A stretch of 64,000 nucleotides of DNA from Squalus acanthias. Taxonomy: Eukaryota. Made by a program: the position numbers and the translations under genes. The notes beneath the pieces were generated by a model. The model was not told the DNA's origin, did not search any database, and was given only the letters and a program-made list of their open reading frames with translations. Numbering within the stretch: the first letter of the stretch is position 1; every line of letters begins with the position of its first letter. Shown here one piece after another: positions 9,909 to 38,310 of the stretch. The stretch covers positions 118,484,001 to 118,548,000 of the forward strand of contig CM059431.1 of assembly GCA_030390025.1 (NCBI GenBank). The letters are read 5' to 3'.

Positions 9909-11570
9909 TAGCAATTTCCCCACAACAGATGTTAGGCTAACTTGTCTATAATTCCCTCGTTTCCCTCTCTCACCATTCTTAAAAAGTGGAGTGACATGTG
10001 CAATTTTCCAATCTAAAGGGACGGTCCCTGAATCTAGAAAGCTTTGGAAGATTATAGTTAGGGCATCTGCAATGTGCTCACCTACTTCCTTTAAAACCCT
10101 GGGATGGAAACCATCTGGCCCTGGTGATTTGTCACTCTTTAATGCCATTATTTTCTATATTACTGTTACTTTACCTACGTTAATTTTATTGGGTCCCTGT
10201 TCCCGATTTAATATTAGTTTCTTTGGGATTTCCGGCATGCTATCCTCTTCTTCTACTGTAAATACTGACTCAAAGTAATTAGTCAACATGTCTGCCATTT
10301 CCCCATTATCATTGACAATATCACCACTTTCAGTTTTTAAGGGACCAACATTGTTCCTGACCACCCTCTTTTTCCAAATGTAACTTTAAAAATTATTTGT
10401 ATTGATTTTGATACCCTTTAAAGTTTCTTTTTATACTCCCTTTTTGTAGCTCTTACTATTTGTTTTGTGATCCTTTGCTGTTCTTTGTATCACATACCTT
10501 ACTGACAATTAAAGATACAGGGCTTAAAGTTATAACATTTTTAGTGATAATTATCTACCACTTTGCAATTTTTTTCACCCTGTTACTTCCCATGATGATT
10601 CGTAGTTCTTGCTGAAGCGGTCATTGGCGTGGCATTGCACCAAGGAGATTTTCCCACTGTCGAGTCTCCAGTAATCAGCAGCCTGAATAGGTTGGCTGCA
10701 GTGTCAGTCAGCTCGGATCGAGGTGGCTTGTAAGCATTTCCCTCTGACTCCAGCAGAAACCACCATCCCCTTCAATGACACACAAAAACCCCACATTTCA
10801 AGCAACACCTTTAGCTCAGCAATTTAATATGTACAAAATGTTGAAAATATTAAATCCTTTTTATTTTTTTCCCTCCATAAGCTCATGCAGTTATTTGTAA
10901 ACATACCGCTTGGTTGTTACAAGCTATGTGTTGTTACAGTGCACTCTGGGAATTGTAGTTCTAGTGGACAGAGGCGAAAACAAAAATTCCTAGGATGCAT
11001 CTGTCTCACGCACAGGATTTTTCAACAGAAGCTACAACCCACTATCTCAGCTGAGGAATCTAAATGCTGGGAATTGAGCAAATCTCTTGTCCTATACCCC
11101 TGAGAGGAGGCAAGTCTCTTGGGTGGAAATTTCTTGAATGCATTTCCAATTTACAATGGCTATCTTTATGTACAAGTCTTCTGGGGCTAAAGACCTTCCT
11201 CTCGAACTTCTATAATTTTAATACAAGATTTTTTTTTTTGCTCATCAAGGTGAGGTTGTTAATGCTGGAAAATAGAATTCTTCCCAATTTCAGGCACCTG
11301 TGGTGTCAGCATCAAACATTCCTCGGCCTGGTATAACACAGCCAGACACAAAGTAAAGCTCATTTACTCTGCCTGAAAGGAGCCAATGGCAAATAATAAA
11401 TTAATGGCTGTAGTGACTTTTACTGCAGCAGGTAGTAGCATGCTTCCCCTAGACGTAGCTTGCAGGTCATCTTACTGTATGCAAAACAAGTCAGTCACTG
11501 CCTCTCTGGTGAAGATTAGCTTCTGCATATATTTCTTTTCTGTTAACCATTTGCCTTGGCCTGTATATTC

Positions 11571-12021
11571 AGGAAAGAAAGGGAGAAAGAAAGAAAGAGA
11601 GAAAGAAAGAAAGAAAGAGAGAAAGAAAGAAAGAAAGAAAGAAAGAGAGAAAGAAAGAAAGAGAGGAAGAAAGAAAGAGGAAAGAGAGGAAGAAAGAAAG
11701 AGAGAAAGAAAGAAAGAGAGGAAGAAAGAAAGAGAGGAAGAAAGAAGAAAGAGAGGAAGAAAGAAGAAAGAGAGGAAGAAAGAAAGAGAGGAAAGAGAGG
11801 AAAGAGAAGAAAGAAAGAGAGAAAGAAAGTGAGAAAGAAAGAAAGAGAGGAAGAAAGAAAGAGAGGAAGAAAGAAAGAGAGGAAGAAAGAGAGAAAGAAA
11901 GAAAGAGGAAGAAAGAGGAAAGAGAGGAAGAGAGGAAGAAAGAAAGAGAGAAAGAAAGAGAGAAAGAAAGAGAGGAAGAAAGAAAGAGAGGAAGAAAGAG
12001 AGGAAGAAAGAGAGGAAGAAA
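11571..12021. repeat. Polypurine GA-rich microsatellite (GAAA/GAGAAA/GAGGAA units)
   Basis: About 450 bp of almost pure A/G, directly continuous with the tail of the adjacent SINE. Confidence 0.98.
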
Positions 12022-12315
12022 GACTTGCATTGATATGGAGCCTTTCATGTCCTCAGGACGTCCCAAAGTGCTTCACAGCCAATTAAGTACTTTTGATGTG
12101 TTGTCACTGTTGTAATGTAGGAAACACGGCAGCCAATTGTGCACAGCAAGCTCCCACAAGCAGCAAAATAATGATGACCAGATAATCTGGTTTTTTTTTG
12201 TGATATTGATTGAAGATAAATATTGGCCAGGACACTGGGGATAACTCCTCTGCTTTTCTTTGAAAAAGTACCATGGTATCTTTTACATCCACCTGAGAGA
12301 GCAGACGAGGTCTTT
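12017..12315 (-). mobile_element. DeuSINE (SacSINE1-like), 5'-truncated
   Basis: Minus strand ctctcaggtggatgtaaaagataccatgg..ccagtgtcctggccaatatttatc is a Deu-domain core; similar to 31996-32417. Confidence 0.85.
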
Positions 12316-12859
12316 GGGTACATACAGTCTTCTTCTGATGTCCTGTATTTAGACAAGCATCACTTTATTCCTCATTTTTCTCTAATTATGTAAAGCAAAG
12401 TGCAAAGGACTAGGAAGCTTGCAAAAATGGCCAGCCCAAAATCCCTCCTACAAACAGGGTTTCTGCTTATCTATCAAAGAAGTTACTACTTTGAGAAGGA
12501 AATGTCCATATTGACTTCTCACAATTGGCTCTTGACTAATCTAGCTAGTTCTTATTGCTCTTTTAAATTGGGCATTAGTTAGTAGGGAGTCTTGAAGATT
12601 TCCCCCTTCCTTACAATCCATTCCTTTGAGGGGGAGGAGCAACCTCTGACCCCTTACTCAAATTCAATTCACTGTTCCGGTGTTCCAATTCTGCTCCGCC
12701 TGGGGTATCCTCTGTTTCTTCTATCTTTCCTGATGTTACCCTGCCTGGGGTCTCCTCTACATTGCTTCGGATCTTCTCTTTCGGTGTGCTCAATTAATTT
12801 GTTAGTGCTGGTTAGTCATAGGCATGAGTATACAATTGGCTTATGTATCAAAGTCTTAC

Positions 12860-13280
12860 TACATAGTGTATACATATATCAAATACACTATCATTACAAG
12901 TTGGAAACTACCAGAGCGTGTGAAATAATACGAACCTAAGGGTGTGCTGATGTATTAAGCCCAATATCCCCACCAGTGTGAGTTGTCCTCTATCCTGTAA
13001 ATTTCAATATCCATTCTCAAGTTTTGTCTTGCTCCAAAACATAAAAATGCTTTAGGGAGGAGTTCAGTCACATCACGAGCTCACTGAAAACCTCAGACAA
13101 CAGGGGAATGTCGTACCCGAATTGTGCCACATAATTGTGCAGCTCCTACTTAAGTATCTCATTTACTGTCAGTTTCACTTGAGCATAGGTTTTGATGCTG
13201 AGTAAAACATGTTGGTTGATGGACAGGTCCTGTTAGACCCGTAAAGCATGGTAGTTGCGGTAGTAGAGCCCAAGGGGTTA
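12860..13280 (-). pseudogene. env: env C-terminal (heptad repeat / transmembrane) remnant
   Basis: Manual translation across stops and frameshifts: QVKLTVNEILK*ELHNYVAQFGYDIP..KHFYVLEQ..EDNSHWW..DIGLNTSAHP*VRIISHALVV/FQLVMIVYLI, aligning with the env at 33962-34330. Confidence 0.75.
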
Positions 13281-14584
13281 ATTTATCAAATCATAATTTC
13301 CTTCTGTCACTGTGGGGAAATATTAACTTAAAATTAAGAAACTTAAATTTAATAATGTCCAATATCTTTAAATTTCATACTAAAGTTGTTGCTTGCTGAA
13401 CCTAAACAGCTGTCAGTTGAAAGAGGTTAACTCCTTTGCAGGTTTTTAAGAAGGTGGAGCAAAACATTGTCAGGCGCACGCAATTGCGTCACTTCATGTA
13501 AATTTAAAAAAAAACTTTCTGATCGAAAAAGACGGTTGTGTTTTCACACTTTAACTAAACATGAACAGAACATGATAAAACACAACAAAATAGCACATGC
13601 ATGCAGAAAACAGTAAAGTACATCATATTTCTTATTGTCCTTTCTTCAGATGCCTTTCCAAAATACTGTAAAAACATTGAATATAACTGGAGAAAAATTA
13701 GTTTTTCACATTTAAGAAAATCAAATCAAACTGCTTTGGAAGATTGCACCATAGCAACCGTGACTCCAAGGTTAAATCTTAGACTGAAACTTAATCTTTT
13801 GTTAAACAAACTTTTTGTTGTTCTGCTCAGTTTTTACACACCAGCTTAACTTAAATTGTAGTTCAAAGTTTTTTTTTCCAATTCTTGGGGCACAATCTTA
13901 TTCGCACATTCTTAAAACTTCCAAAATCCAAGACAAGACAAAAGTTTTAAACGCTTTTAACACAGAGAAGTGGGTCGAGCTAAAACACACATAGCAGAAT
14001 CTTTCTTTTAAAGACAGACTTTTCAGACAAAAGAAATACTGTAACTTCTTAAACATTCTGTCAGGAAAACTTTCACACTTTAACACACATTTTCATACAA
14101 ACTGAAACTCCAGCATTCCTTAACGTTCCTTTCACTCAGCAAATCTTGCGTTTTATTTGTCTCGGCACAGACGTTAATAACTTCCATGTCGGTAAAACTT
14201 TACATTTCTCTTTTTTTCCCCTCTTTTTAATTCGGCGTCTCAGCAGCTTTTCCTGGCTTTCCAAATGACTGTTTTTTTCCCTTCTTTGCTGAGTTTTCAG
14301 ATTGGTTAGCCTGCAAATTAGATCTTTTTCCTCTCTATCTCCCCTCCCCCCCCACCCCCCTCCCCTCCTGCACTTTATGCTTCACCTCCTTCAGGCTATC
14401 TATCAACTGTTCCCGGTGAATGCCAACGCCATTGTATTTCTGGTTTTACCTTTCAACACGCTCTTTACCGCTCCCTTCTTTCAGAGAGAAAAAAAAACTA
14501 TACTCAGTCTAAGCAACAATCACGTGCGTTTGACCGAGTCCCTCCGGTCCCCCCGACTGGAACCTTACAACTCCTAACTCTGTG

Positions 14585-14602
14585 ATCTCAATTCTGACAC
14601 CA
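14585..14602 (-). promoter_or_regulatory. Primer binding site, tRNA-Leu type
   Basis: TGGTGTCAGAATTGAGAT versus the Leu PBS TGGTGTCAGAAGTGGGAT (16/18), 1 nt from the LTR end. Confidence 0.8.
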
Positions 14603-14603
14603 C

Positions 14604-15374
14604 TGTAAGATTAGGATCACCGGCCACACATAGATTACCCAAAGGGTTTTAGCAGTTGCAAGGCTTTTATTAAAGAGCTACAGTTTTAAAGCATAATCAG
14701 ATATTACATATGGTATAAGCTGAGTATAATAGACATACAACCCGTGACTGTAGAGAGCGATCTATGACTCCTGAATTGGAATGCCACAGGTGGGGAGGCA
14801 GTACGGTGGTCTCGGATTGGGTGAAATCCTGCAGTTTGCTGCAGCGGTCACATCCGTTGGGTCATCTCTCGAGCTGTTAGAGGTGTTAGGCCGTCAGCCA
14901 CCTCAGAGGCTAAACTTGACCAAGGTGTTAGGCCGTAGCCACCTCGGGGAAGCCTTCGCCCCTAACTGCCTGATTTCCTCTCTCGGTCGTCTATATTTAT
15001 AGTTATTTCGGTGGGCTGGTAATCACCTGGTGTCAATCATTTGATCCCCCATCCTATTGTCCAATTGTGAAGCGGGCAGGCATCCCTCGCCGTCCCTTTC
15101 TGCATGACTGACGAGGCCGCCCTCTTATCTTTCTGAGGAATGTTTTGTTATGTTTCTTTAAGGACATTTTATGACTTTTCGGCTCCATTTTTGTCTATTA
15201 TCCCACCACCTTGTGTTGTTTTGCATTTTACGATTCCCTTATCACTTCTATTTGTCTTTTGATGCTTGATATTCGACCTTGTTGGCATTTCTGCTATCTG
15301 TTCCTGGCTGCATGTTGTCAGTCTCTGTTCTAAGAATTAAAACCCATCTTTGAATCTAACAACTATTTCTTACA
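14604..15374 (-). repeat. LTR (771 bp)
   Basis: TGTAAGA..TCTTACA inverted termini; minus-strand TATAAA near 15000 and AATAAA near 14670; adjacent PBS. Confidence 0.85.
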
Positions 15375-16044
15375 GGGTGATGATTGGGAGAACCCCTGAA
15401 CGTATACATCTAACGTATACATTTATTGTAGCAATGACTTTCATTTTATCAGGTTAAAAACAGGGTTTGTGTTCCACCACAAAACATAGCACATACTGTC
15501 ACTGCAACAATATACTTACAAATACATATTTTGTATGATCGCATTTTGCAAGTAGACCACAAGCCCAAGAGGAGAAAGCTAGTCCTATAAAGAAGGAAAG
15601 AGTTTGCTCATTAAGTATTCCTGCCCATTATAACATCTTAAGCTTCCTACAGACAAATCATTAGCTGACAGGATGCAGAGTTTTACACTACTGAGGACAA
15701 TTTGTCACCTTGTAAAGAGAGTTGGCTGATTATGAATGGTGTGTTTGTGTTCCTGTAAATAATAACACCTAGTCTGACTACTGCAACAAACATTAACAGT
15801 TAAATCAGACTGCCCTCCTTCCCCCAAATCAGAGAAAGCTTTTTATCTGTGCTAATTCTCTCAGCTGAAATGTTTCAGGTCACCTGTTTTGAACTTGGCA
15901 ATATAGCAGGCCCATCTTCAACTTGGTTGACCTTCCTGTTTACATAGAATTACATAGAAATGTCAACATAGAAACAGTCTGCTTGGTCCAACCAGTCTGT
16001 GTTGGTGTTTATCCCCCACACGAACAGTAGTCCTAATAGTCCTA

Positions 16045-16396: not shown

Positions 16397-17011
16397 AGTC
16401 CTAATCTTACATGCTTGCCCTGTTCCCATATCCCTTTATTCCCCTTTCATTCAATCACCTTTCTAACCTATTCTTAGAAGTTGATATGCTCTTTGTTTCA
16501 ATCACTAACTTCAGTAGTGCATACCACAGCTTCACAACCATCTGTATAAAAAGTTTCTCCTGCTCTCTGTCCTAAATTTGATCATTTAATTTTATATCTT
16601 CAATCTCGACCCCTCTTGAAAGAGTCTGTTTCTATCTACCCTGTCTCATCCCTTTATCATTAAAATCTCCTCTATCAAAACACCCTGTAATCTCCTCTGT
16701 TTTAATTGAAGCAGCCTTCAGTTTTTCAAGTCTTTCTTTGCATTTGTATCTCCTCATACCAGGCAGCATTGTAGTGAATCTGTGCTGCACCCTCTATTGC
16801 CTCAACATCCTTCGTATAGTGTACAGCCTAAAACTGCACACACTACTCTAGCTGTGGTCTTACTAAGATTCACCATTATATCTTGACTTTTATGTCCTAT
16901 ACCTCCAGCCATATAACCCAATATTCCATTAGCTGTTTCTGATGTCTTGTGAACCCAAGCCCCTGAATCTCTTTGTCGTTCGACATCACCCAGCTTTCCC
17001 CTATTCAAACT

Positions 17012-17434
17012 TGAAGTAAGCCCCCAAAGTGCGGACCAAGTGATATACAAGGTCGACGCTACTGGCTTGTTGAAAGAAAGACAGACCAAGTAATTGAAGT
17101 CACAATGGTTTATTCAGGCCTGGGGAGAACCTCTTAAGTCGCTGCGTAAGTCCAACTCCGCCGAGCTAATCAAAGCACACATATTTATACAAACATTTCT
17201 GCCTTACCGTTACGGAGATCCAATTAATTTTAAAAGTTACACATTACTCATTACCTGAGGGTGGCTGTTTATACAAAGATAACACATAATTTACACACAA
17301 TGCTGTCCTAGCCCGTGATGTGGTTTCAAGAACTGCGTTCCGTTTTCTGTTAATCTCGTTATAGGCCTGCTTTTCTGCAAATGAGTCGTGCCCGTCTTGC
17401 CCTGGTTATGTCCAATTTTTAATATCTTACTTCA
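17012..17434 (-). mobile_element. Solo LTR (423 bp)
   Basis: TGAAGTAAG..CTTACTTCA inverted termini; 5-bp TSD AAACT (17007-17011, 17435-17439); minus-strand TATAAA and AATAAA. Confidence 0.85.
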
Positions 17435-26023: not shown

Positions 26024-26778
26024 GGGCCGTATATTCCGATCCCTATGGGTGTGTACGTGCTGTGTACGCACCCGTAGGGACATCGGAAATGCTGGTTTCA
26101 GGCATGCACAGTGCACGCGCTGAAAACCGGCATTTCCGATCTGTCAAGAATGCTCTTGACAAATCAGACACCTGCCCTGGAGAAGGGCCTCCGCGGGCAG
26201 AGAGTTCCGCTTTCTGGAGACCCTCCACCCGCAGAAAACCATTAGAATTCTTACGCCTGGTAAAAGCAGGCGTAAGGCCTGCTTTTACCAGGATAAGAGT
26301 TGAAAAATTTAAAACAAAAAGGTTTTTTCACTCATTTATCATTTAAAAATACTTTTAAAAAAAGGTAAGCTTATTTTTAGCCCCGTAAAAAACTTTAATT
26401 ATTTTTTCAAAAAATTAAATTTGTTTAAAATATTTAATTTATTGTAATTTCAAATAATTTTAAAAAGGTGATTTAAAAAAAAAATATTTAATGTTTTACA
26501 GTGTTTTTGGGGTGATCTCCATTCATATATTTGACAGGTCTATCCGTCAAGTGTATGAAGGGAGATTCCCTTCATCTATTGGCTCCCCATGGCCCACGAT
26601 CCCAGGGACGCTTGCAAACTTCCTGCGCCTCTGAGATACGTGGGCCCTGCACACTTGGAGTTTGGAGATGCCCAGGATCGGAAGTGTAGGCGCCTCAGGA
26701 GCCCTCAGATAAGTTCGTAGATTTTTCCAGATCGGAGGCCTCTGCACGCAGGAGGCCTCCAATCGGAAAATACGGCCC
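26024..26778. mobile_element. Harbinger-type MITE, complete
   Basis: 17-bp TIRs GGGCCGTATATTCCGAT and ATCGGAAAATACGGCCC; TSD ATT; AT-rich core. Confidence 0.92.
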
Positions 26779-30629: not shown

Positions 30630-31995
30630 GGAATCCATTACTTGATTTGTTTTTTTTTAAACTTGATTGTGATTGAGTTATCATTCAAGTTGGGATTTTA
30701 TTAAACACTAAAACAAGTTTTTGGGTTACTGCACATATATAGGGGGTTAAATTGGATAACCCCCAAAAATGGGCGCAGAGATCACAATGTGTGATTAACC
30801 CGAGCCCGTTGATTGCAATGCAGGCAGGATGCTAACTTCATGCTGCCTGCTCATTTCCATGATTGCTGCATGCAGCCAGCGCTCCCCACGCTGTTCATTG
30901 GCTGCACGCATCAGCAGGGGGCCCAATATCGTGAGTGCCTAGCACTACTTAAAGTTAGCCTGCACCTCTTAAAGGGCAGGTGTATTGTGGCTGCTGAGAT
31001 CATTCTGAATATTGTGCTGTGGAAGAATCAACAATGGCTGACCATGGGAGAGAGCGTGCACCAAGGTTTTCGGATGCTGTACTGGAGGTATTAGTAGAAG
31101 AGGTGGAAAGAAGGAGAGATGTCCTGTATCCCGACGGGGGCTGGAGGCCCTCCAGACACATCCTCAGAAAGCAGTGGTAAGAGATAGCGGTGGAGGTCAA
31201 TGCCAGGCGCGTTGCCCCAAGGACCAGAATACAGTGCAGGAAGAAGTTTAACGATCTCACAAGAGTTGTCAAGGTCAGTAAGTTCATCTTCAAATGCCAT
31301 ATCCTACCAACTGCACCACTAGCCTTATCCACTTCTCAATTCACTACACACCCATCACTCACCTACCAACAATCTCTATCAATCAGGACTCATACCTAAC
31401 ATTCACATGCTTTACCTGACCCTCACACACTTAGCACTGTTGCAAGCCTCGCACCCACATCTCACAGCTTGCGCACACTAGCAGCTATTCAAACATGATA
31501 GTCACATCAGCACAACTCACTGACACACTTCCCTCTTTCTTGCAGGAGAAGGTGACACACAACAGCAGGCAGCAAGAATTAATGGGAGGGGGACAAGCGC
31601 GCCTGCATGTTTTGACCCCCAAGGAGGAGACTGCACTGGCCATTATGGGAAGGGTCTTTGGTGAGGCCGTGACCACTGGGGGGGCTGACGCGATTGAAGA
31701 TGAGGATATCCGCATAACTAATCCTCCTTCTCTCATCCCACTTCTCCCTCATCCCTCAATCTGACTTACAAAATGCAGATGGTGCGATTATACACTAGTA
31801 ACCTTCTCCTCTCCCCTCACCACAACCCAACGCTTGTCTCTTTTTTATTTCAGATACTCAAGAACTGGAACCTGCCCAGGCAGTCGAAGAAAAACAAAAA
31901 GAAAGTGAAGATGAAGGGACACTATCACTCGATTTCACAGTCGCAGCCACCAGTTCAGATACTGAAAATATGCGTATTTTAGAGGATAGGATTGA

Positions 31996-32417
31996 AAGAA
32001 AGAAAGACTTGCATTTATATAGCGCCTTTCACAACCTCACAATGTCCCAAAGCACTTTACAGCCAATGAAGTACTTTTGAAGTGTAGTCACTGTTGTAAT
32101 GTTGGAAACACGGCAGCCAATTGCACACGCAAGCTCCCACAAACAATAATGTGATAATGACCAGATAATCTGTTTTCAGTGATGTTGATTGAGGGATAAA
32201 TATGGGCTCGGACAATGAGGAGAACTCCCCTGCTCTTCTTCGAAATATTGCCATGGGATTTTTTACATCCGCCTGAGAGAGCAGACATTGCTTTAACATC
32301 TCATCTGAAAAACGGCACCTCCGACAGTGCAGCACTCCCTCAGCATTGCACTGGAGTTTCAGCCTAGATTATTGTGCTCAAGTCTCTGGAGTGGGAACTA
32401 TCCACTGAGCCACAGCT
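31996..32417 (-). mobile_element. DeuSINE (SacSINE1-like), near full length
   Basis: tRNA-like head AGCTGTGGCTCAGTGG, Deu core, (TTTC)n tail; TSD ATTGA at 31991-31995 and 32421-32425. Confidence 0.88.
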
Positions 32418-32746
32418 TATATTGAGGCAGGATTTGCACCTGATGGGACACCGGGCACAAATACGCTGCAGCCAGGACTGGGGGAAAGGATAGCGCAGGT
32501 GCCAGCTTGCCAGAGGGCGAAGTCACACACTAGGTCTGCTGCACAGGACTCAGATGAGGACTTCGATGGGCCATGCTACAGAAGAAGGCTGATGGGTGTA
32601 TACATCAAAATGCTTGGTGCATTGGGAAGCCTGAAGGAAAGCCTGCATTCAATGTCAAGGAGCATGGAGGTGTCTGGCACCAACTTGGCACAGGGATTTG
32701 CGCAGAGCTTGAAACACTTCCTTTCCAACATGGAACGTGTGGCCAC

Positions 32747-33280
32747 TGTAAGAAATTCTGATTGTCTGACAGTTTATAGAGTTCAGACCCATGGAACAGA
32801 CAACACAAAACCCAATGAATCTGTGAAACTTTTTTAATTAAATATCAACAAGAGGTTACAAGTAATTACCAGAATACAAACTGTACTCAATTCATGTACT
32901 TATTACAAGCAAGCATCTAAAATCATTTACTTTAAGCTCAGGTGATTATAAGCACCACATACGTACTAACACCAGATGAGAGGTCAATTCAACGATGACT
33001 AGACATATGACTTTAACTGGCAACTGACCAGGTCACCATCGACTATAGCCCCGAATGTCAGCCTACAACATCCCTTTTACCCCAAAACTTGGCAACTCGC
33101 CCACAGCATTCGTGTCCCAAACTGTGTTGATAATGTTGTTTTCCTCTCTTTCTCTCTCTCTTCCTATCTGTTTTGACGCTTAGTTAACCAAGGCCAGACA
33201 TTCAAGGATTGGAGAGAGTCGTTGTTTTTCACATCTGCAGGGTTCTTGACTCGTGGTTCTCACAGAATTTTCAAGATCTT
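32747..33280 (-). repeat. 3' LTR (U3 start deleted)
   Basis: Direct repeat of 39035-39561, roughly 95% identical by eye. Confidence 0.95.
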
Positions 33281-33294
33281 GGAATTTTCAAGAT

Positions 33295-33960
33295 CGTATT
33301 TTCCGATCCCTACGAGTGTGTATGAGGTGTGTGCACACCCGTAAGGACCTCGCAAATGCCGGTTTCAGGCATGCGAAGTGCATGCGCTGAAAACCGGCAT
33401 TTCCGATCTGTCAAGAATCCTCTTGACAGATCGGACGCCTGCCCTTGAGAAGGGCCTCTGCGGGCGATAGTTCCACTTTCTGCAGAACCTCCGCCCGCTG
33501 AAATCACTTAAACATCTTGCGCCTGGTAAAAGCAGGCATAAGGCCTGCTTTTACCAGCATAAGAGTTTAAAAAAGTTAAAAAAAAATGTTTTCACTCATT
33601 TACAATTTAAAAATACTTTTAAAAAAGGTAAGTTTATTTTTAGCCCCGTAAAAAACTTTAATTTTTTTTCAAAAATTAAATTTTTGTTCATAATATTTAA
33701 TTTAATGTAATTTTAACTAATTTTAAAAATGTGATTTCAAAAAAAAAATTATTTAATGTTTTGATGTGTTTTTTCATTGATCTCCATTCATACTTTTAAC
33801 GGGTCTAAGCTGAGAGACCTGTCAAAAGTATGAAGGGGGATTCCCTTCTTCCATTGGCTCCCCATGGCCCACGTGATCCCAGGGACGCTTGCAAACTGCA
33901 TGGGCCCCTGGGATACCTGGGCCCTGCGCATTTCATCGTGGAGAGGCCCAGGAGCGGAAA
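33295..33960. mobile_element. Harbinger-type MITE, truncated
   Basis: Colinear with 26028 to about 26685; lacks the first 4 TIR bases and the right end. Confidence 0.88.
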
Positions 33961-33961
33961 T

Positions 33962-35670
33962 GCTTGTGGCGTCTGTTGATTTGACAAGTTATTATCAATA
34001 AGTATAAAACAATCACCAACTGAACAATGACTAAAACATGGGAGGTCATTCTTATCCAGGGGTGAACCTCGATATTCATACCGATATCCCACCAAGATGA
34101 ATCATCCCCAATCTTAGATATTTCTTTGCGCAGATTCTGTTTTTTCTGGGCCAAGGTATAAAAGTGCTTTTGAGACTGACTAACTCATTTCATTAACTCT
34201 ACCAGGTGTTCTGGTAGAGGTGGAATGTCACAGCTGAATTGAGTCACATACTGGTATAATTGCTCTTTTAATTCATCTTCTACAGCGATATCTACTTGCC
34301 TATGTGAATAAATGCTGAATAAAACCCGCGCTCCAAGTCTTACAAGTTGGACTGGGGTAAACCAAATAGTTCCCGCCGCAATGGGATAAGTCAGGTTGTT
34401 ACCATACTGGTATTCCCGGTGTATGGTGGTGACACCCTCGGAACGCAGATTGTACGGGGAAAAGCTGTCCTGCAACCACTTTCATGATGCAGTTCCATTC
34501 TATCCCATCCCAATCAAATCTATTAACAAGGGAGGTTCCGGTATTAAAAACAATGGCTGCATCATTTATCAGACCCCGTCGTGTTCTGATATGGTCCCCT
34601 TTAACCCTGTACCTGACATTGTTTCCTTCAGTGATCTCAGTATTTTCCCCAAAGTTATTGTTAAATCCATTACCATCTCCTGAGCCCTTGCGATATAACG
34701 GTTCTAATTCTGATTCTGCCAGTGTTATGCTGGCCCTTTCCCAAAATCCTTCTATTAATTCCCATTCCATTCTCCCATATAACCGCGCTGTTTCTAGTTC
34801 GCACCAGTTCGGTATTCCCACCTCGGTCAGATTCAATATCACAGGTACCACTTCATGATGCACATTATGGTACAATACCATCCGAGTTGGGATTACCATG
34901 AACCCAGTTGTCGGCCCCGGAGAGTGTTTGGGACAGACAACCCGGTTTCCTGTTGTTCTTCCCGTGGTTGTGTTTTATTCATGGGGGGGAGTTTAGGACG
35001 GACTTTCAATTCCACCGTGTGTATTCCGGTTTTACATTCCTAACATGATAATGTGGGCAACCCTCTGAACCCCTACACGGCCTTCCCTCCCTGTCCATGG
35101 ACCATTGCTAGGGACCCCTGTCATCTATTCCATACACTTAGATACGTTTCCCGCCTATCCAGTGGACGGGAGCTCCACAGAGCGGCTCTGCGGATATAAA
35201 ATTATGGTTAGATAGCGTTTCCGAAGGGTTTATGCATCCATAGATTCCCTCATGCTCCTGCCACCATCGTGGCCAACACAACAGAGTGTCTCCCACTGCT
35301 TGGGATTGGGTCGGGCTTCCTACATTTCCCCGAGGGTTCCCTATCTGATAATGCCTTGAATGGTTACCTGGTTCTGCTTGTAAAAACCACACCCTTGGCC
35401 CGGTGGGGCGATCTTTGCATTTTATGCAGACCCTCCCTACCTTCCTGGATCTCATAAGTGGTAACCCATACTGTCCCTGAATACACGGTTTCACAATCAC
35501 CCTTGATGTACTGGAGGGTAATGTTTCCAGTGGTGTCTCCGGGGCAACTGCAATCGAACTATTATAGGGAAAATAGTTAGTGTTGGTCCAGTATGCCGAA
35601 TAGGCTGACAGGATACTTTGAGATAGAGCAGAATCCCGATCATTGGCCAGAATAATTCCTTCATTTTATA
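33962..35670 (-). pseudogene. env: env-like class I fusion glycoprotein, disrupted
   Basis: ORF pieces 35138-35500, 34399-34899, 34185-34475 and 33933-34154; furin-like RTRR then GLINDAAIVFNTGTSLVN; SSWWDIG; TM segment VLVIVQLVIVLYLLII followed by basic residues; lies between integrase and 3' LTR. Confidence 0.8.
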
Positions 35671-36059
35671 CAGTTCAGCCTCTCAATACTGATGTATTTT
35701 TAAAACAAAACAAAACGGGACTTCCCACTTTTCTTTTTCTGCATCGGGGAATTTTCGACTCCTACCACTGATGATACCTCAAGGGTGTCTTTTTATTTCA
35801 TTTACTACGTCGTGGGGTAGGAGGGGTCTGTTGGATTTGTCTGCGGACAGGAGGTGGTTCCGAGCCTGGGGATGAGGAGGTTTCTACAGCTCCCATGTCC
35901 TGTCCACCTTCATTTGGATCATACTGTACCTGTGGAGGCACCACTTCAGGCAAGGGCGCCTCATTGGGTGGGAGTGTCCCATTAGGCGCCCCTTCATCAT
36001 CATCTCACTGGAGAGGATAAATCCAGCTCACCATGCTCAATCTTGGCTTGTTGTCTTCT

Positions 36060-36812
36060 TGACCTGCTTGTGGGCTGAAAAAGCTTCATCTGGTTAATAT
36101 GAAATCATTTGATTTCCTCAGGTAACTGAACAACTTTTACCATAGGACAAGCTTTGTCAATAATGTTATACGGGCCCTTGTAGAGGGGTTCAAAATCTCC
36201 TACCCTCGCATAGTTTCGTACCATTACCTGGCTCTCTACTTCCCATTCCTGGGGTTTACTCAGAGCCAGGTGTAGTCGGTTGCGTTGGTGTGCCTTCCCA
36301 ATGTTGTGCGCGGCCCTCAAGTTCAGTTCTTTTAAAGTTCCCCACAGGTCACTCAGCAATTTGTCCCGAGTCACCTCCTTAATTTGTTTATCAGTCAGAG
36401 TGGGGACCAACAGGTGTGTAGGGGTTTGGATGGGTCTCCCCGTTACCAATTCATGAGGGGAATGACCCGTTCCATTGGATCTGTTACTACGTATCCTCAT
36501 TAGGATTAGGGAAATTACCTCATCCCACTTAGTGTGATATTCGTTTAATTCCTTTTGCAGGGTCAACTTCGATGTATGGTTCATTCTTTCCACAATTCCC
36601 GATGACTGCGGGTTGTGGGTCACATGCCATTTCCCTTCAATTCCAAGCAATTTCAGAGTGGCTTGCATTACCTGACCTGTAAAATAATTTCCCTGGCCTG
36701 ACTCTACCATGTGAGGAAGTCCCCATCTGGAGAATACCTCTCTAACTAGGGTCTTGGCCATCCATGAGGCTGTGGCTGACTTGCACGGGAAGACTTCTAC
36801 CCACCTGGTAAT
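36060..36812 (-). pseudogene. pol: Integrase core plus GPY/F C-terminal remnant
   Basis: TRWVEVFP..FSRWGLP..ESGQG (for SDQG)..PQSSGIVER..SPHELVTGRP..YKGPY; N-terminal HHCC domain absent. Confidence 0.92.
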
Positions 36813-38310
36813 CTTGCACCATCAACACCCATCTGGCTCCCTGCTTAACAGAAAAAACAGACAATCCATTGTGGTTTGCCTACGAGCCCAATGGATTAAT
36901 TCGTCAATTCCTGATTCTCTTGTCACTGTGGAGAAATATTCACTTAAAATTAAGAAGATTAAATTTAATAATGTCCAATATCTTTAAATTTCATTCAGTT
37001 GTTGTGTGGTGAAAAGCAGCTGTGAGCGGAAAGGGTTAACTCCTTTGCCAGTTTGTAAGAAGGCGGAACAAATTGTCAGACGCACGCAATTGCGTCACTT
37101 CGCGTAAATCTTAAAAAAACTTTCCCGATCGAAAAAGACAGTTTGGTTTTCACAATTTAACAGGTTAGTTAACATTTTTCAAAAGAAGACAAACCCAGAT
37201 ACCATCAATCAGTGTCAACTTGTGTCACACAGCCTCTCGCAGCTTTCAGGTAAATTTAAAACAAAATCTTTGTGCCTTTAAAATTAGTAACACCACTACA
37301 AACATTTTGTGAAACAACTCCACACACAACAATAGCATTTCTACTGTTTTCCACTGGTCACACATACTTGAAATTAGTCAGAAGTTTCAAAAATACCAAT
37401 TGTTGATGTGATTGCCTCATGTCCGGAACTAAAGGCTTTCACACAATTTGCACCAACCAGAATTTCACCGTGGCCACAATAAAAGTCTGGTTTAAACAAA
37501 TTAATTAACCTCAATAACTCCAATTCAATTCAAACCGATATCTTAAACTAACCAGTACCGCTTGAAAAGAAAGGGAGAAGCTTGCCTCAGCTTGTAGTTT
37601 CAAAACATTCATACAAGTTTTTTTCAGACATCACTTCAGACAGAACTTTTCCTTTTCTCCTTTCTTTATTTCACCATAGGCTACTTGTCAAAAACTTAGA
37701 AAGTGGGCGTCTTGGATTTGCAGTAACCAAATTAAGAAGACAGTGCTTTGTAAACGTTCAAATTGATTTAAAATAAAATCAAACAATTGCTATTTTTTTA
37801 AATCCAATTAAAACAAAATACTTTCAGAAAGTCCAAATTAATTTCTACCAGACACGATTAGAAACCATGGCAACCGAAACTTCAAGGCTGAAGCTTATCT
37901 TTTGTAAAACAAACTGCCTCTGATTTACAGTTTGCTGTACAAGCTGTCCCAGTCAAAATATATCCAGAGCAGTGTCTTTAACTTAAAAATGCAAATCACA
38001 AAGTTTCTCTCACTTCTAGGTGCACAATCTTAAATTGAAATGAACATATTTAACACATCCATACTCTTAAAACTTCCAACATCCAACAAAGGATTAAACG
38101 GCTTTAGCTCCATGCACAGAAAAGTGGGTGGAGCTAAAACAAACACAACAGACACTTTCTTTCAAAAACAGACTTTCAGACAAAAGGAATACTGTAACTT
38201 CTTAAAATTCATAGTCAGGAAAACGTCCACACTTTAACACACACTTTCACAAAAACTGAAATTCCAGCATCCTTTAAGGTTCCTTTCAGTCAGCAAATCT
38301 TGTGTTTTAT

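What the first reader, a model, noticed from the sequence alone, without database searches (positions are those of the whole stretch)
13300..14345. Shared non-coding module replaces gag-pol in two different LTR elements
13300-13550 is clearly colinear with 36918-37160, and 13740-14345 with about 37850-38480. The block is AT-rich and has no credible ORF. In both elements it starts at the end of the coiled-coil ORF and occupies the place of PR/RT/RH. It is then joined to an IN fragment in one element and directly to the env C-terminus in the other. It is alignable as DNA while the env remnants align mainly as protein. Inference: a non-autonomous, ETn-like family defined by a cis-acting cassette (packaging, export or internal promoter) that may move between helper lineages.
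Basis: partly seen in the sequence, partly recalled or inferred. Interest (0 to 1): 0.75.

Follow-up and report, generated by a model that had tools for sequence, protein, structure and literature searches.

The report
Non-coding cassette shared by shark retroelements
Two dead, distantly related retrovirus-like elements in a shark-type genome carry nearly the same 1-1.6 kb stretch of non-coding DNA where their capsid and enzyme genes should be, most likely because one picked it up from an abundant helper-dependent family by recombination, a known way for retroviruses to turn into hitchhikers; whether the stretch has a job of its own is not shown.

Summary
On the minus strand, A (13266-14343) and B (36884-38486) share two colinear blocks at 85-86% identity. 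Their env remnants are 60% identical with saturated third positions, their primer sites differ and their LTRs do not align. The block is non-coding: no codon periodicity, no excess open frame, no match to related shark Gag or Pol.

Corrections: its first ~150 nt are the tail of the Gag coiled coil; it stands in for capsid, nucleocapsid, PR, RT, RH and the front of IN; A lacks ~500 nt that B has; only B is a proven provirus (LTR pair, 4-bp TSD), A has one unmatched LTR.

Public contigs of four runs show summed depth 3-6 times higher over the cassette than over B's backbone, and bridge both of B's junctions. Best reading: a recKoRV/ETn-type recombinant, with a cassette from an abundant non-autonomous family captured into a recently coding backbone. 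A cis function is unproven: there is no conserved RNA fold, only two acceptor-like sites and one motif cluster. The scan's index showed no look-alike on other DNA. Known kind, new member.

The parts
13266..14343 (-). Shared cassette, copy A (short form): gag coiled-coil tail plus U-rich non-coding tract
36884..38486 (-). Shared cassette, copy B (long form; 37162-37821 has no alignable counterpart in A)
14186..14343 (-). Gag coiled-coil tail inside the cassette of A (matches residues 175-222 of B's ORF, frame broken once)
   Evidence: tblastn E 2e-9
13266..13555 (-). 3' block of A: motif cluster with 12-bp palindrome (13478-13489), 36-nt run identical to B (13343-13378), two splice-acceptor-like sites (about 13410 and 13310)
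   Evidence: acceptor score is a crude one of my own
36884..37161 (-). 3' block of B: same motif cluster (37081-37101), identical run (36959-36994), acceptor-like sites (about 37020 and 36926); highest contig depth of the internal region
14604..15374 (-). LTR-like stretch of A (TG...CA ends, TATA-like and AATAAA signals seen by eye); no partner in the window
14585..14602 (-). Primer binding site of A, tRNA-Leu-like (assignment recalled, from no call)
   Evidence: one search shows the site; differs from B's
12897..13232 (-). env C-terminal remnant of A (ectodomain end and membrane anchor; 5 stops in 112 codons)
12320..12615 (-). Possible start of a second, unrelated LTR after a purine-rich stretch; no similarity to A's 5' LTR
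   Evidence: uncertain
39035..39696 (-). 5' LTR of B (662 bp), followed outside by the 4-bp target duplication at 39697-39700
39011..39028 (-). Primer binding site of B, tRNA-Lys type, 6 nt from the LTR
   Evidence: same site named Lys-tRNA PBS in PMC3854779
38311..38994 (-). Coiled-coil ORF of B = N-terminal half of Gag, 227 codons, one in-frame stop near 38705, ends before the capsid
36069..36812 (-). Integrase remnant of B, lacking the zinc-binding domain and the first catalytic strand
33954..35700 (-). env remnant of B (signal-peptide-like start, RxRR site, membrane anchor; several stops and frameshifts)
   Evidence: anatomy read by eye, no family hit
33295..33962 (.). MITE-like insertion (84% to 26028-26686) that separates env from the 3' LTR; the first ~130 bp of that LTR are missing beside it
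32747..33280 (-). 3' LTR of B (truncated), 94% identical to the 5' LTR (K2P 0.064); target duplication at 32743-32746

Best explanation
The block is a non-coding cassette belonging to an abundant group of helper-dependent LTR elements of cartilaginous fish, and it has moved between deeply diverged retroviral lineages by recombination. Shown: it is non-coding, it sits in the capsid-to-RNase H slot in both elements, and it is far more alike between A and B than their env, LTR or primer site. Inferred: RNAs of a coding-competent provirus and of a cassette-bearing element were packaged together, and reverse transcriptase switched template near the end of the gag coiled coil and again just before the IN core, giving B (own LTR, gag-N, IN remnant and env; foreign middle). 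B-type recombinants then multiplied with Gag and Pol supplied in trans. A looks like the older, more reduced kind that could be the donor type. Most likely job of the cassette, if it has one (my odds about 0.45 that it is selected): control of transcription or splicing through its 3' block (motif cluster, two acceptor-like sites), not a folded packaging or export signal.
For: Cassette 743 of 872 columns identical against 176 of 294 in env and 38 of 111 at env third positions (Fisher p 2e-18 and 8e-29). Similarity stops abruptly at A14343/B38486; nothing significant upstream. LTRs unalignable, primer sites differ. No 3-nt periodicity of substitutions in 4 of 4 cassette segments (p 0.34-0.68) while env shows it (0 of 2000 permutations); breaks needed to thread a frame equal shuffles in the cassette (16 vs 16.9; 9 vs 10.6) but not in gag-N, IN, env (1 vs 7.1, 2 vs 7.1, 7 vs 15.7). 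No match of the capsid half of shark Gag P0002 or of 5 of 5 Pol relatives. In one search median summed contig depth over the cassette is 3.1, 6.3, 5.8 and 4.2 times that of B's backbone in 4 of 4 runs; X18 record 20 bridges the gag/cassette joint, X6 record 27 the cassette/IN joint (32 letters on the cassette side), and X6 record 28 follows B's gag-N and leaves it at 38492, within 6 nt of where A-B similarity begins. Loose ends at 36959, 36994, 37017, 38309 and 36921 carry A-like letters.
Against: Only two full copies could be read; no genome was held. Contig depth is by the tool's own statement no copy number, and the contig evidence for each joint is one record. A has no LTR pair or TSD, so its cassette-env joint may be a later deletion or a chimera of two elements. 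No helper with B's or A's LTR was found; the nearest Pol relatives are 58-61% identical. The four variants I checked match A's letter but could equally be B's private changes. Signs of function are weak: the palindrome appears in 43-44% of shuffles, the 36-nt identical run is about what 86% identity gives, CpG o/e is high in B's 3' block (1.09) but not A's (0.62), acceptor-like sites are common in U-rich DNA, and no fold is conserved.
Confidence: 0.62

Rival explanations
1. Same recombination history, but the cassette is passive filler: it spread only because it rode in an abundant non-autonomous RNA and keeps the genome a packageable length; none of its sequence is selected.
For: No conserved fold; length varies (A lacks ~500 nt; contigs skip 36986-37285, 37570-38075 and others); pairwise conservation is no patchier than chance allows; A-B divergence (0.16-0.17) is close to that between B and other copies of its own backbone (about 11-17% in the longest records).
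Against: Depth peaks fall on short islands (about 36957, 37102, 37473-37500, 37897) in runs of 3 organism labels, as expected if short motifs are kept; but assembly and the 80% filter can make such peaks.
Confidence: 0.35
2. The cassette-bearing core is the stable lineage and it is the ends that were swapped: one non-autonomous ancestor picked up new LTR, primer site, gag-N and env from successive helpers. Same process, opposite bookkeeping.
Against: B's gag-N, IN and env are all nearly open, which fits one recently coding backbone with one foreign middle better than several separate captures.
Confidence: 0.2
3. The tract is a native non-coding spacer of autonomous helpers (coiled-coil ORF, spacer, spliced downstream genes, loosely as foamy viruses splice pol), and A and B are plain deletion derivatives.
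For: Two acceptor-like sites at its 3' end; IN is closest to foamy virus IN among solved structures.
Against: The only relative of the ORF continues straight into a capsid-like region and zinc knuckle (P0002); published lokiretrovirus coiled coils are fused to Gag in 20 of 20 listed headers; would not explain 85% identity beside saturated env.
Confidence: 0.08
4. The tract is very old, fully decayed gag or pol.
For: It occupies that slot and begins in frame with the gag tail.
Against: No periodicity, no open-frame excess; no hit from P0002 or P0004-P0008 better than E 0.02 in a 1.4-kb subject, and that one on the wrong strand; U 35% on the sense strand against 20-24% in the coding remnants.
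Confidence: 0.06
5. An independent repeat inserted twice, or gene conversion between the two loci after integration.
For: The two copies are only 24 kb apart; high depth could come from copies outside LTR elements.
Against: No TSD within 5 nt of either edge and no terminal inverted repeat (8 of 25 matches); same orientation and same slot twice; it includes a gag tail; B's joints recur in contigs of other runs; A-B divergence (0.16) exceeds B's LTR-LTR divergence (0.064), so conversion after B inserted is unlikely.
Confidence: 0.07

Closest known systems
recKoRV and PhER of koala (PMC5696478, passages read)
   Same: Backbone with LTR, leader and truncated 5' gag plus truncated 3' env; middle replaced by sequence from an abundant endogenous retroelement with no coding capacity, a primer site and an env-like remnant; multiplied without its own enzymes. 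B resembles recKoRV, A resembles PhER.
   Different: recKoRV takes 4.9 kb of PhER including its LTR; here the foreign piece is 1.6 kb, wholly internal, starts with a gag tail, and B keeps an IN remnant and most of env. Different virus group, older (LTRs 6% apart), and seen in several organism labels.
Mouse ETn / MusD (PMC6466679, PMC3854779, PMC12283350: passages read)
   Same: LTR element without enzymes that depends on a coding relative; B even has the same Lys primer site. That ETn's middle is non-retroviral sequence is recalled, not read.
   Different: ETn has no coding capacity and shares its LTR with its helper; B keeps long, nearly open gag-N, IN and env pieces; no helper was identified here; the cassette is shared across unrelated LTRs.
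Harlequin and the MER4I group of human class I ERVs (PMC4724089, PMC5753468: passages read)
   Same: Reiterated mosaics in which internal pieces of one family sit between the LTRs of another, ascribed to co-packaging and polymerase jumps, moved by 'midwife' helpers.
   Different: Gamma/epsilon-like mammalian elements; that MER4I-group internals are AT-rich and non-coding is my recollection and was not in the passages found.
BHIKHARI (Bik-1, Bik-2) of zebrafish and lokiretroviruses (10.1101/2024.03.25.586437 passages; PMC7947760 passages, section 5 and supplement search)
   Same: Gag with an N-terminal coiled coil; helper Pol with two RNase H domains; non-autonomous derivatives.
   Different: Bik keeps the whole Gag with capsid and has no pol or env; here Gag stops before the capsid. 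The screen found lokiretroviruses in 0 of 5 listed chondrichthyan genomes.
SPRE (PMC8579622, abstract and outline only) and modular non-autonomous LTR families of sugar beet (10.64898/2026.03.01.708851, passages)
   Same: Precedents for a cis RNA element shared by different ERV families, and for internal modules shared across non-autonomous families by template switching.
   Different: SPRE is short, lies with env and has been tested; no sequence comparison with it was made. The plant cases are Gypsy/Copia-type and carry no env.

Membership tests
recKoRV-type recombinant non-autonomous ERV | Ends (LTR, leader, 5' gag, 3' genes) from a recently coding virus | tested here: met
   B: LTR pair with TSD, gag-N 1 break in 227 codons, IN 2, env 7, all below 200 of 200 shuffles
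recKoRV-type recombinant non-autonomous ERV | Middle replaced by sequence of a more abundant non-coding retroelement | tested here: inconclusive
   Non-coding and shared with A; depth 3-6 times backbone, but depth is no copy number and the donor family was not assembled
recKoRV-type recombinant non-autonomous ERV | Same joints at several independent loci | tested here: inconclusive
   One contig record bridges each of B's two joints in other runs; flanks unknown
recKoRV-type recombinant non-autonomous ERV | Donor's LTR carried in the captured piece | tested here: not met
   No third LTR in B; A's LTR matches nothing in the window
ETn-like (non-coding partner of a MusD-like helper) | Two LTRs and a primer site | tested here: met
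   Met for B; A has a primer site and one unmatched LTR
ETn-like (non-coding partner of a MusD-like helper) | No coding capacity in the internal region | tested here: not met
   B keeps about 3.1 kb of nearly open gag-N, IN and env; A comes close to meeting it
ETn-like (non-coding partner of a MusD-like helper) | Coding helper that shares the LTR and mobilises it in trans | not testable with these tools
   No genome held; nearest Pol relatives 58-61% identical
Lokiretrovirus | RT groups as sister to sampled retroviruses | not testable with these tools
   Neither element has RT; no lokiretrovirus reference could be brought into the tools
Lokiretrovirus | Pol with tether plus RNase H | tested here: met
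   Met in the nearest full Pol relative P0006 (Pfam RT_RNaseH and RNase_H), not in the elements themselves; true of retroviruses in general
Lokiretrovirus | Coiled coil ('Smc') at the front of Gag | tested here: met
   P0002 model: helices 43-294 at pLDDT about 70-86, then low-confidence helical bundle and zinc knuckle; also true of foamy Gag
Lokiretrovirus | Env similar to paramyxo/pneumovirus F (PF00523) with RxKR site | tested here: inconclusive
   RxRR site seen; 0 of 3 env fragments hit PF00523, none in PDB or Atlas; fragments are broken
Structured cis RNA element (packaging or export type) | Stable fold conserved between copies | tested here: not met
   3' blocks z 0.56 and 0.08 with different folds; 0 of 26 windows in A below z -0.6; 4 of 40 in B at or below -2.5, none kept in A; no Rfam hit
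Structured cis RNA element (packaging or export type) | Covariation across many copies | not testable with these tools
   Only two readable copies

The most novel reading that the evidence does not exclude
The cassette is a selected, portable 'hitchhiker module': captured near the coiled-coil/capsid boundary, it turns any provirus of this fish retrovirus group into an efficient helper-dependent element, by leaving a capsid-less coiled-coil Gag that ties its own RNA to helper particles in cis and by adding an internal enhancer or promoter and splice acceptors. It has swept through several LTR lineages and several shark species, reaching far more copies than any one backbone.
Probability: 0.2. 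Interest if true: 0.72.

Novelty: new member of a known kind. Interest (0 to 1): 0.4.

Why it matters
Why some non-coding ERV derivatives (ETn, PhER, MER4I-type) outnumber their helpers, and what their foreign middles do, is still open. A cassette with sharp edges that recurs in unrelated LTR backbones across several fish species would be a natural experiment: many independent captures, with islands that can be ranked for constraint and tested in simple reporters. It also matters for repeat annotation, since such elements have no RT and are missed by RT-based ERV screens. As it stands the pattern is of a known kind and the function is unproven.

Tried and rejected
Whole-genome search: no genome held. 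Rfam at gathering score: 0 hits in the window. Word-indexed protein search with the coiled-coil ORF (0 of 1227 candidates) and with an env piece (0 of 560): weak blanks. ESM Atlas and PDB with the env piece: nothing. IN against viral contigs: 8 pattern matches, 0 confirmed. The 21-nt motif in metagenome contigs gave 3 loci of 62% GC that match only over 24 nt: chance; 0 in viral contigs. Global MAFFT of the two elements misaligned the 3' block and was dropped for local alignments. Homology of A's leader to B's gag upstream of the breakpoint: not significant (p 0.07-0.56). Search for A's second LTR in 10150-12615, 15375-16040 and the whole window: none. Run search listed no holder on record as RNA; X16 and X18 are only guessed to be RNA, so the very high depth of X16 on the 3' block is not taken as expression; none of the 15 joints shown (281 not shown) lies at an acceptor-like site. 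The bacterial promoter scan and ARAGORN are uninformative here. A fold search on the P0002 model was not run because the capsid-like part has pLDDT under 50. Earlier-findings look-ups by place and sequence found no look-alike.

Full report
OBSERVATION. Self-BLAST of the window and local alignment confirm two colinear blocks shared by a left element A and a right element B, both on the minus strand: A14343-13711 with B38486-37822 (504 of 594 ungapped columns, K2P 0.17) and A13555-13266 with B37161-36884 (239 of 278, K2P 0.16). Between them A has about 155 nt and B about 660 nt that do not align. The tract is 33-35% GC and 35% U on the sense strand, against 20-24% U in the coding remnants. No third copy lies in the window.

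ANATOMY OF B. B is a real provirus. Its 5' LTR is 39035-39696 and its 3' LTR 32747-33280, 94% identical (K2P 0.064), with a 4-bp target duplication; it interrupts an ORF of another repeat whose two halves flank it ('Harbinger-like' is my recollection). A MITE-like insert (33295-33962) sits where the start of the 3' LTR is missing; one X1 contig joins 39629 to 33970, as expected if env normally runs into that LTR start. The primer site is the Lys type (same site in PMC3854779). The coiled-coil ORF (38994-38311, one in-frame stop) has one relative among 1.84 billion representatives: P0002, a 492-aa catshark protein (E 3e-9) with a long coiled coil, a low-confidence helical bundle, a zinc knuckle (Pfam E 4e-5) and Gag-like Atlas neighbours (top score 0.91, a lead only). 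B's ORF is therefore the front half of Gag and ends about where the capsid would begin (boundary inferred from a weak alignment, E 0.17). IN homology starts at 36812 and lacks the zinc-binding domain and first catalytic strand; relatives are shark proteins at 58-60% and an unnamed full Pol at 61% with two RNase H domains; the best solved match is foamy virus IN (E 5e-11). The host is thus a cartilaginous fish by inference.

ANATOMY OF A. A has an LTR-like stretch (14604-15374), a different primer site (Leu-like, recalled), a 240-nt leader with no significant likeness to B's gag, the cassette, and about 110 codons of env C-terminus with 5 stops. No partner LTR and no TSD were found. A TGTAAG after a purine-rich stretch at 12615 may start another LTR, but it is unrelated to the first. 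Since a fresh insertion has identical LTRs, A is either truncated or a later chimera, and its cassette-env joint cannot be taken as a family trait.

IS THE BLOCK DECAYED GAG OR POL? Not by any test I could run. Substitutions between A and B show no 3-nt periodicity in 4 of 4 segments (p 0.34-0.68), as in LTR and MITE controls, whereas env does (0 of 2000 permutations). The fewest breaks needed to thread a frame equal dinucleotide shuffles in the cassette (B 16 vs 16.9, A 9 vs 10.6) but are far lower in B's gag-N, IN and env (1 vs 7.1, 2 vs 7.1, 7 vs 15.7; 0 of 200 shuffles each). The capsid half of P0002 and 5 of 5 Pol relatives find nothing in it. The exception is the first ~150 nt, which are the gag coiled-coil tail, shared by both. 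These tests used single copies; a much older, erased coding origin is not excluded.

DID IT MOVE? The cassette is 85% identical (743 of 872) while env is 60%, with 38 of 111 third positions and 3 of 10 four-fold sites identical, LTRs are unalignable and primer sites differ. Part of the 0.16-0.17 is post-insertion decay (about 0.03 on B's side from its LTRs), so the two cassettes were close when active. Selection alone is unlikely to hold 870 nt of unstructured U-rich sequence at that level while env saturates; recombination is the simpler reading. The edges carry no TSD or inverted repeat.

BEYOND THE WINDOW. No genome was held. 20 of 21 listed runs, 7 organism labels and 9 studies, hold some words of B's 36800-39050 (share 0.05-0.38); I laid 4 of them (3 organism labels) on 33970-40600 at 80% likeness. 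All are contigs, and the tool warns that depth is no copy number. With that caution: all four cover B's gag-N, IN, env and LTR with diverged copies, so B's backbone is a family; median summed depth over 7 cassette bins is 3.1, 6.3, 5.8 and 4.2 times the median of 14 backbone bins, with peaks near 36957, 37102, 37473-37500 and 37897. One cassette bin (37522-37743) sits at backbone level, and one B-only bin (37300-37521) is high, so A is a short variant and the cassette is a mosaic of islands. X18 record 20 bridges the gag/cassette joint and X6 record 27 the cassette/IN joint; X6 record 28 follows B's gag-N and departs at 38492, 6 nt from the start of A-B similarity, as a cassette-free relative would. 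Several loose ends carry A-like letters; one 137-nt loose end in X16 at 36959 resembles neither copy, hinting at further neighbours. Each joint rests on one record, and most rows of the tables were not shown.

FUNCTION. No fold is conserved: the 3' blocks score z 0.56 and 0.08 with different structures; B has strong local hairpins near 38200-38080 and 37520-37400 that A lacks; Rfam finds nothing. The 5' leaders, where packaging signals usually lie (general knowledge), are not shared. What is shared in the 3' block is a 21-nt identical motif with a 12-bp palindrome (it resembles CRE/CEBP and XRE sites, recalled), a 36-nt identical run, and two acceptor-like sites that rank 1 and 2 of 53 in A and 1 and 8 of 150 in B by a crude score. 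None of these exceeds chance convincingly. If the cassette is selected (about 0.45), transcription or splicing control is my best guess; a capsid-less coiled-coil Gag acting in cis, by analogy to the IAP 1-delta-1 fusion protein (PMC6466679 passage), is a further untested idea.

COMPARISON AND NOVELTY. The closest described case is recKoRV, in which a truncated gag and env flank a middle taken from the abundant non-coding element PhER (PMC5696478 passages); ETn/MusD, Harlequin/MER4I and modular plant non-autonomous families are further precedents. Nine paper searches showed no description of this cassette or of such recombinants in sharks; subscription journals, Repbase/Dfam entries and bioRxiv supplements were not searchable, so it may already be catalogued. 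Verdict: real, correctly seen, very probably a recombination-borne cassette of non-autonomous ERVs; a new member of a known kind, with function unproven. Interest 0.4.

Noticed in passing
window 35650-35200 (-): The front of B's env has a Cys, Trp and 'EGIYGC'-type spacing that looks like the Ig-like head that earlier notes describe for envelopes in this genome; it is broken by frameshifts and Pfam gave no Ig hit.
   Followed up: partly
window 32400-32746 and 39697-40600: B is inserted in an ORF of a very high-copy repeat (Harbinger-like by recollection); the reading continues across the target duplication and contig depth there is the highest of the laid stretch.
   Followed up: partly
window 33262-33295: A 14-nt direct duplication lies at the broken end of B's 3' LTR next to the MITE-like insert; the loss of the LTR start may be an adjacent deletion linked to that insert.
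   Followed up: no
window 39029-39034: B's primer site is 6 nt from the LTR end, A's 1 nt.
   Followed up: no
window about 17010-17430 (-): Looks like a solo LTR of a third family (TATA-like and AATAAA signals in the same order as in A's LTR); no match elsewhere in the window.
   Followed up: partly
window 36863-36897 and 38080-38150 (-): B-specific hairpins: a 9-bp inverted repeat straddling the cassette's 3' edge and a 10-bp stem in the 5' block (z -5.4); neither is kept in A.
   Followed up: partly
window 37445-37502: Imperfect palindrome in the B-only middle, inside a region of high contig depth in X1 and X6, so probably part of the common long form of the cassette.
   Followed up: partly
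window 11570-12320 (-): SINE with a greatly expanded CTTT-type tail; further copies at 31981-32400, 43046-43123, 53264-54370.
   Followed up: no
window 48669-50088 and 55658-56941: Two inverted duplications of 250-350 bp at 82-90% identity.
   Followed up: no
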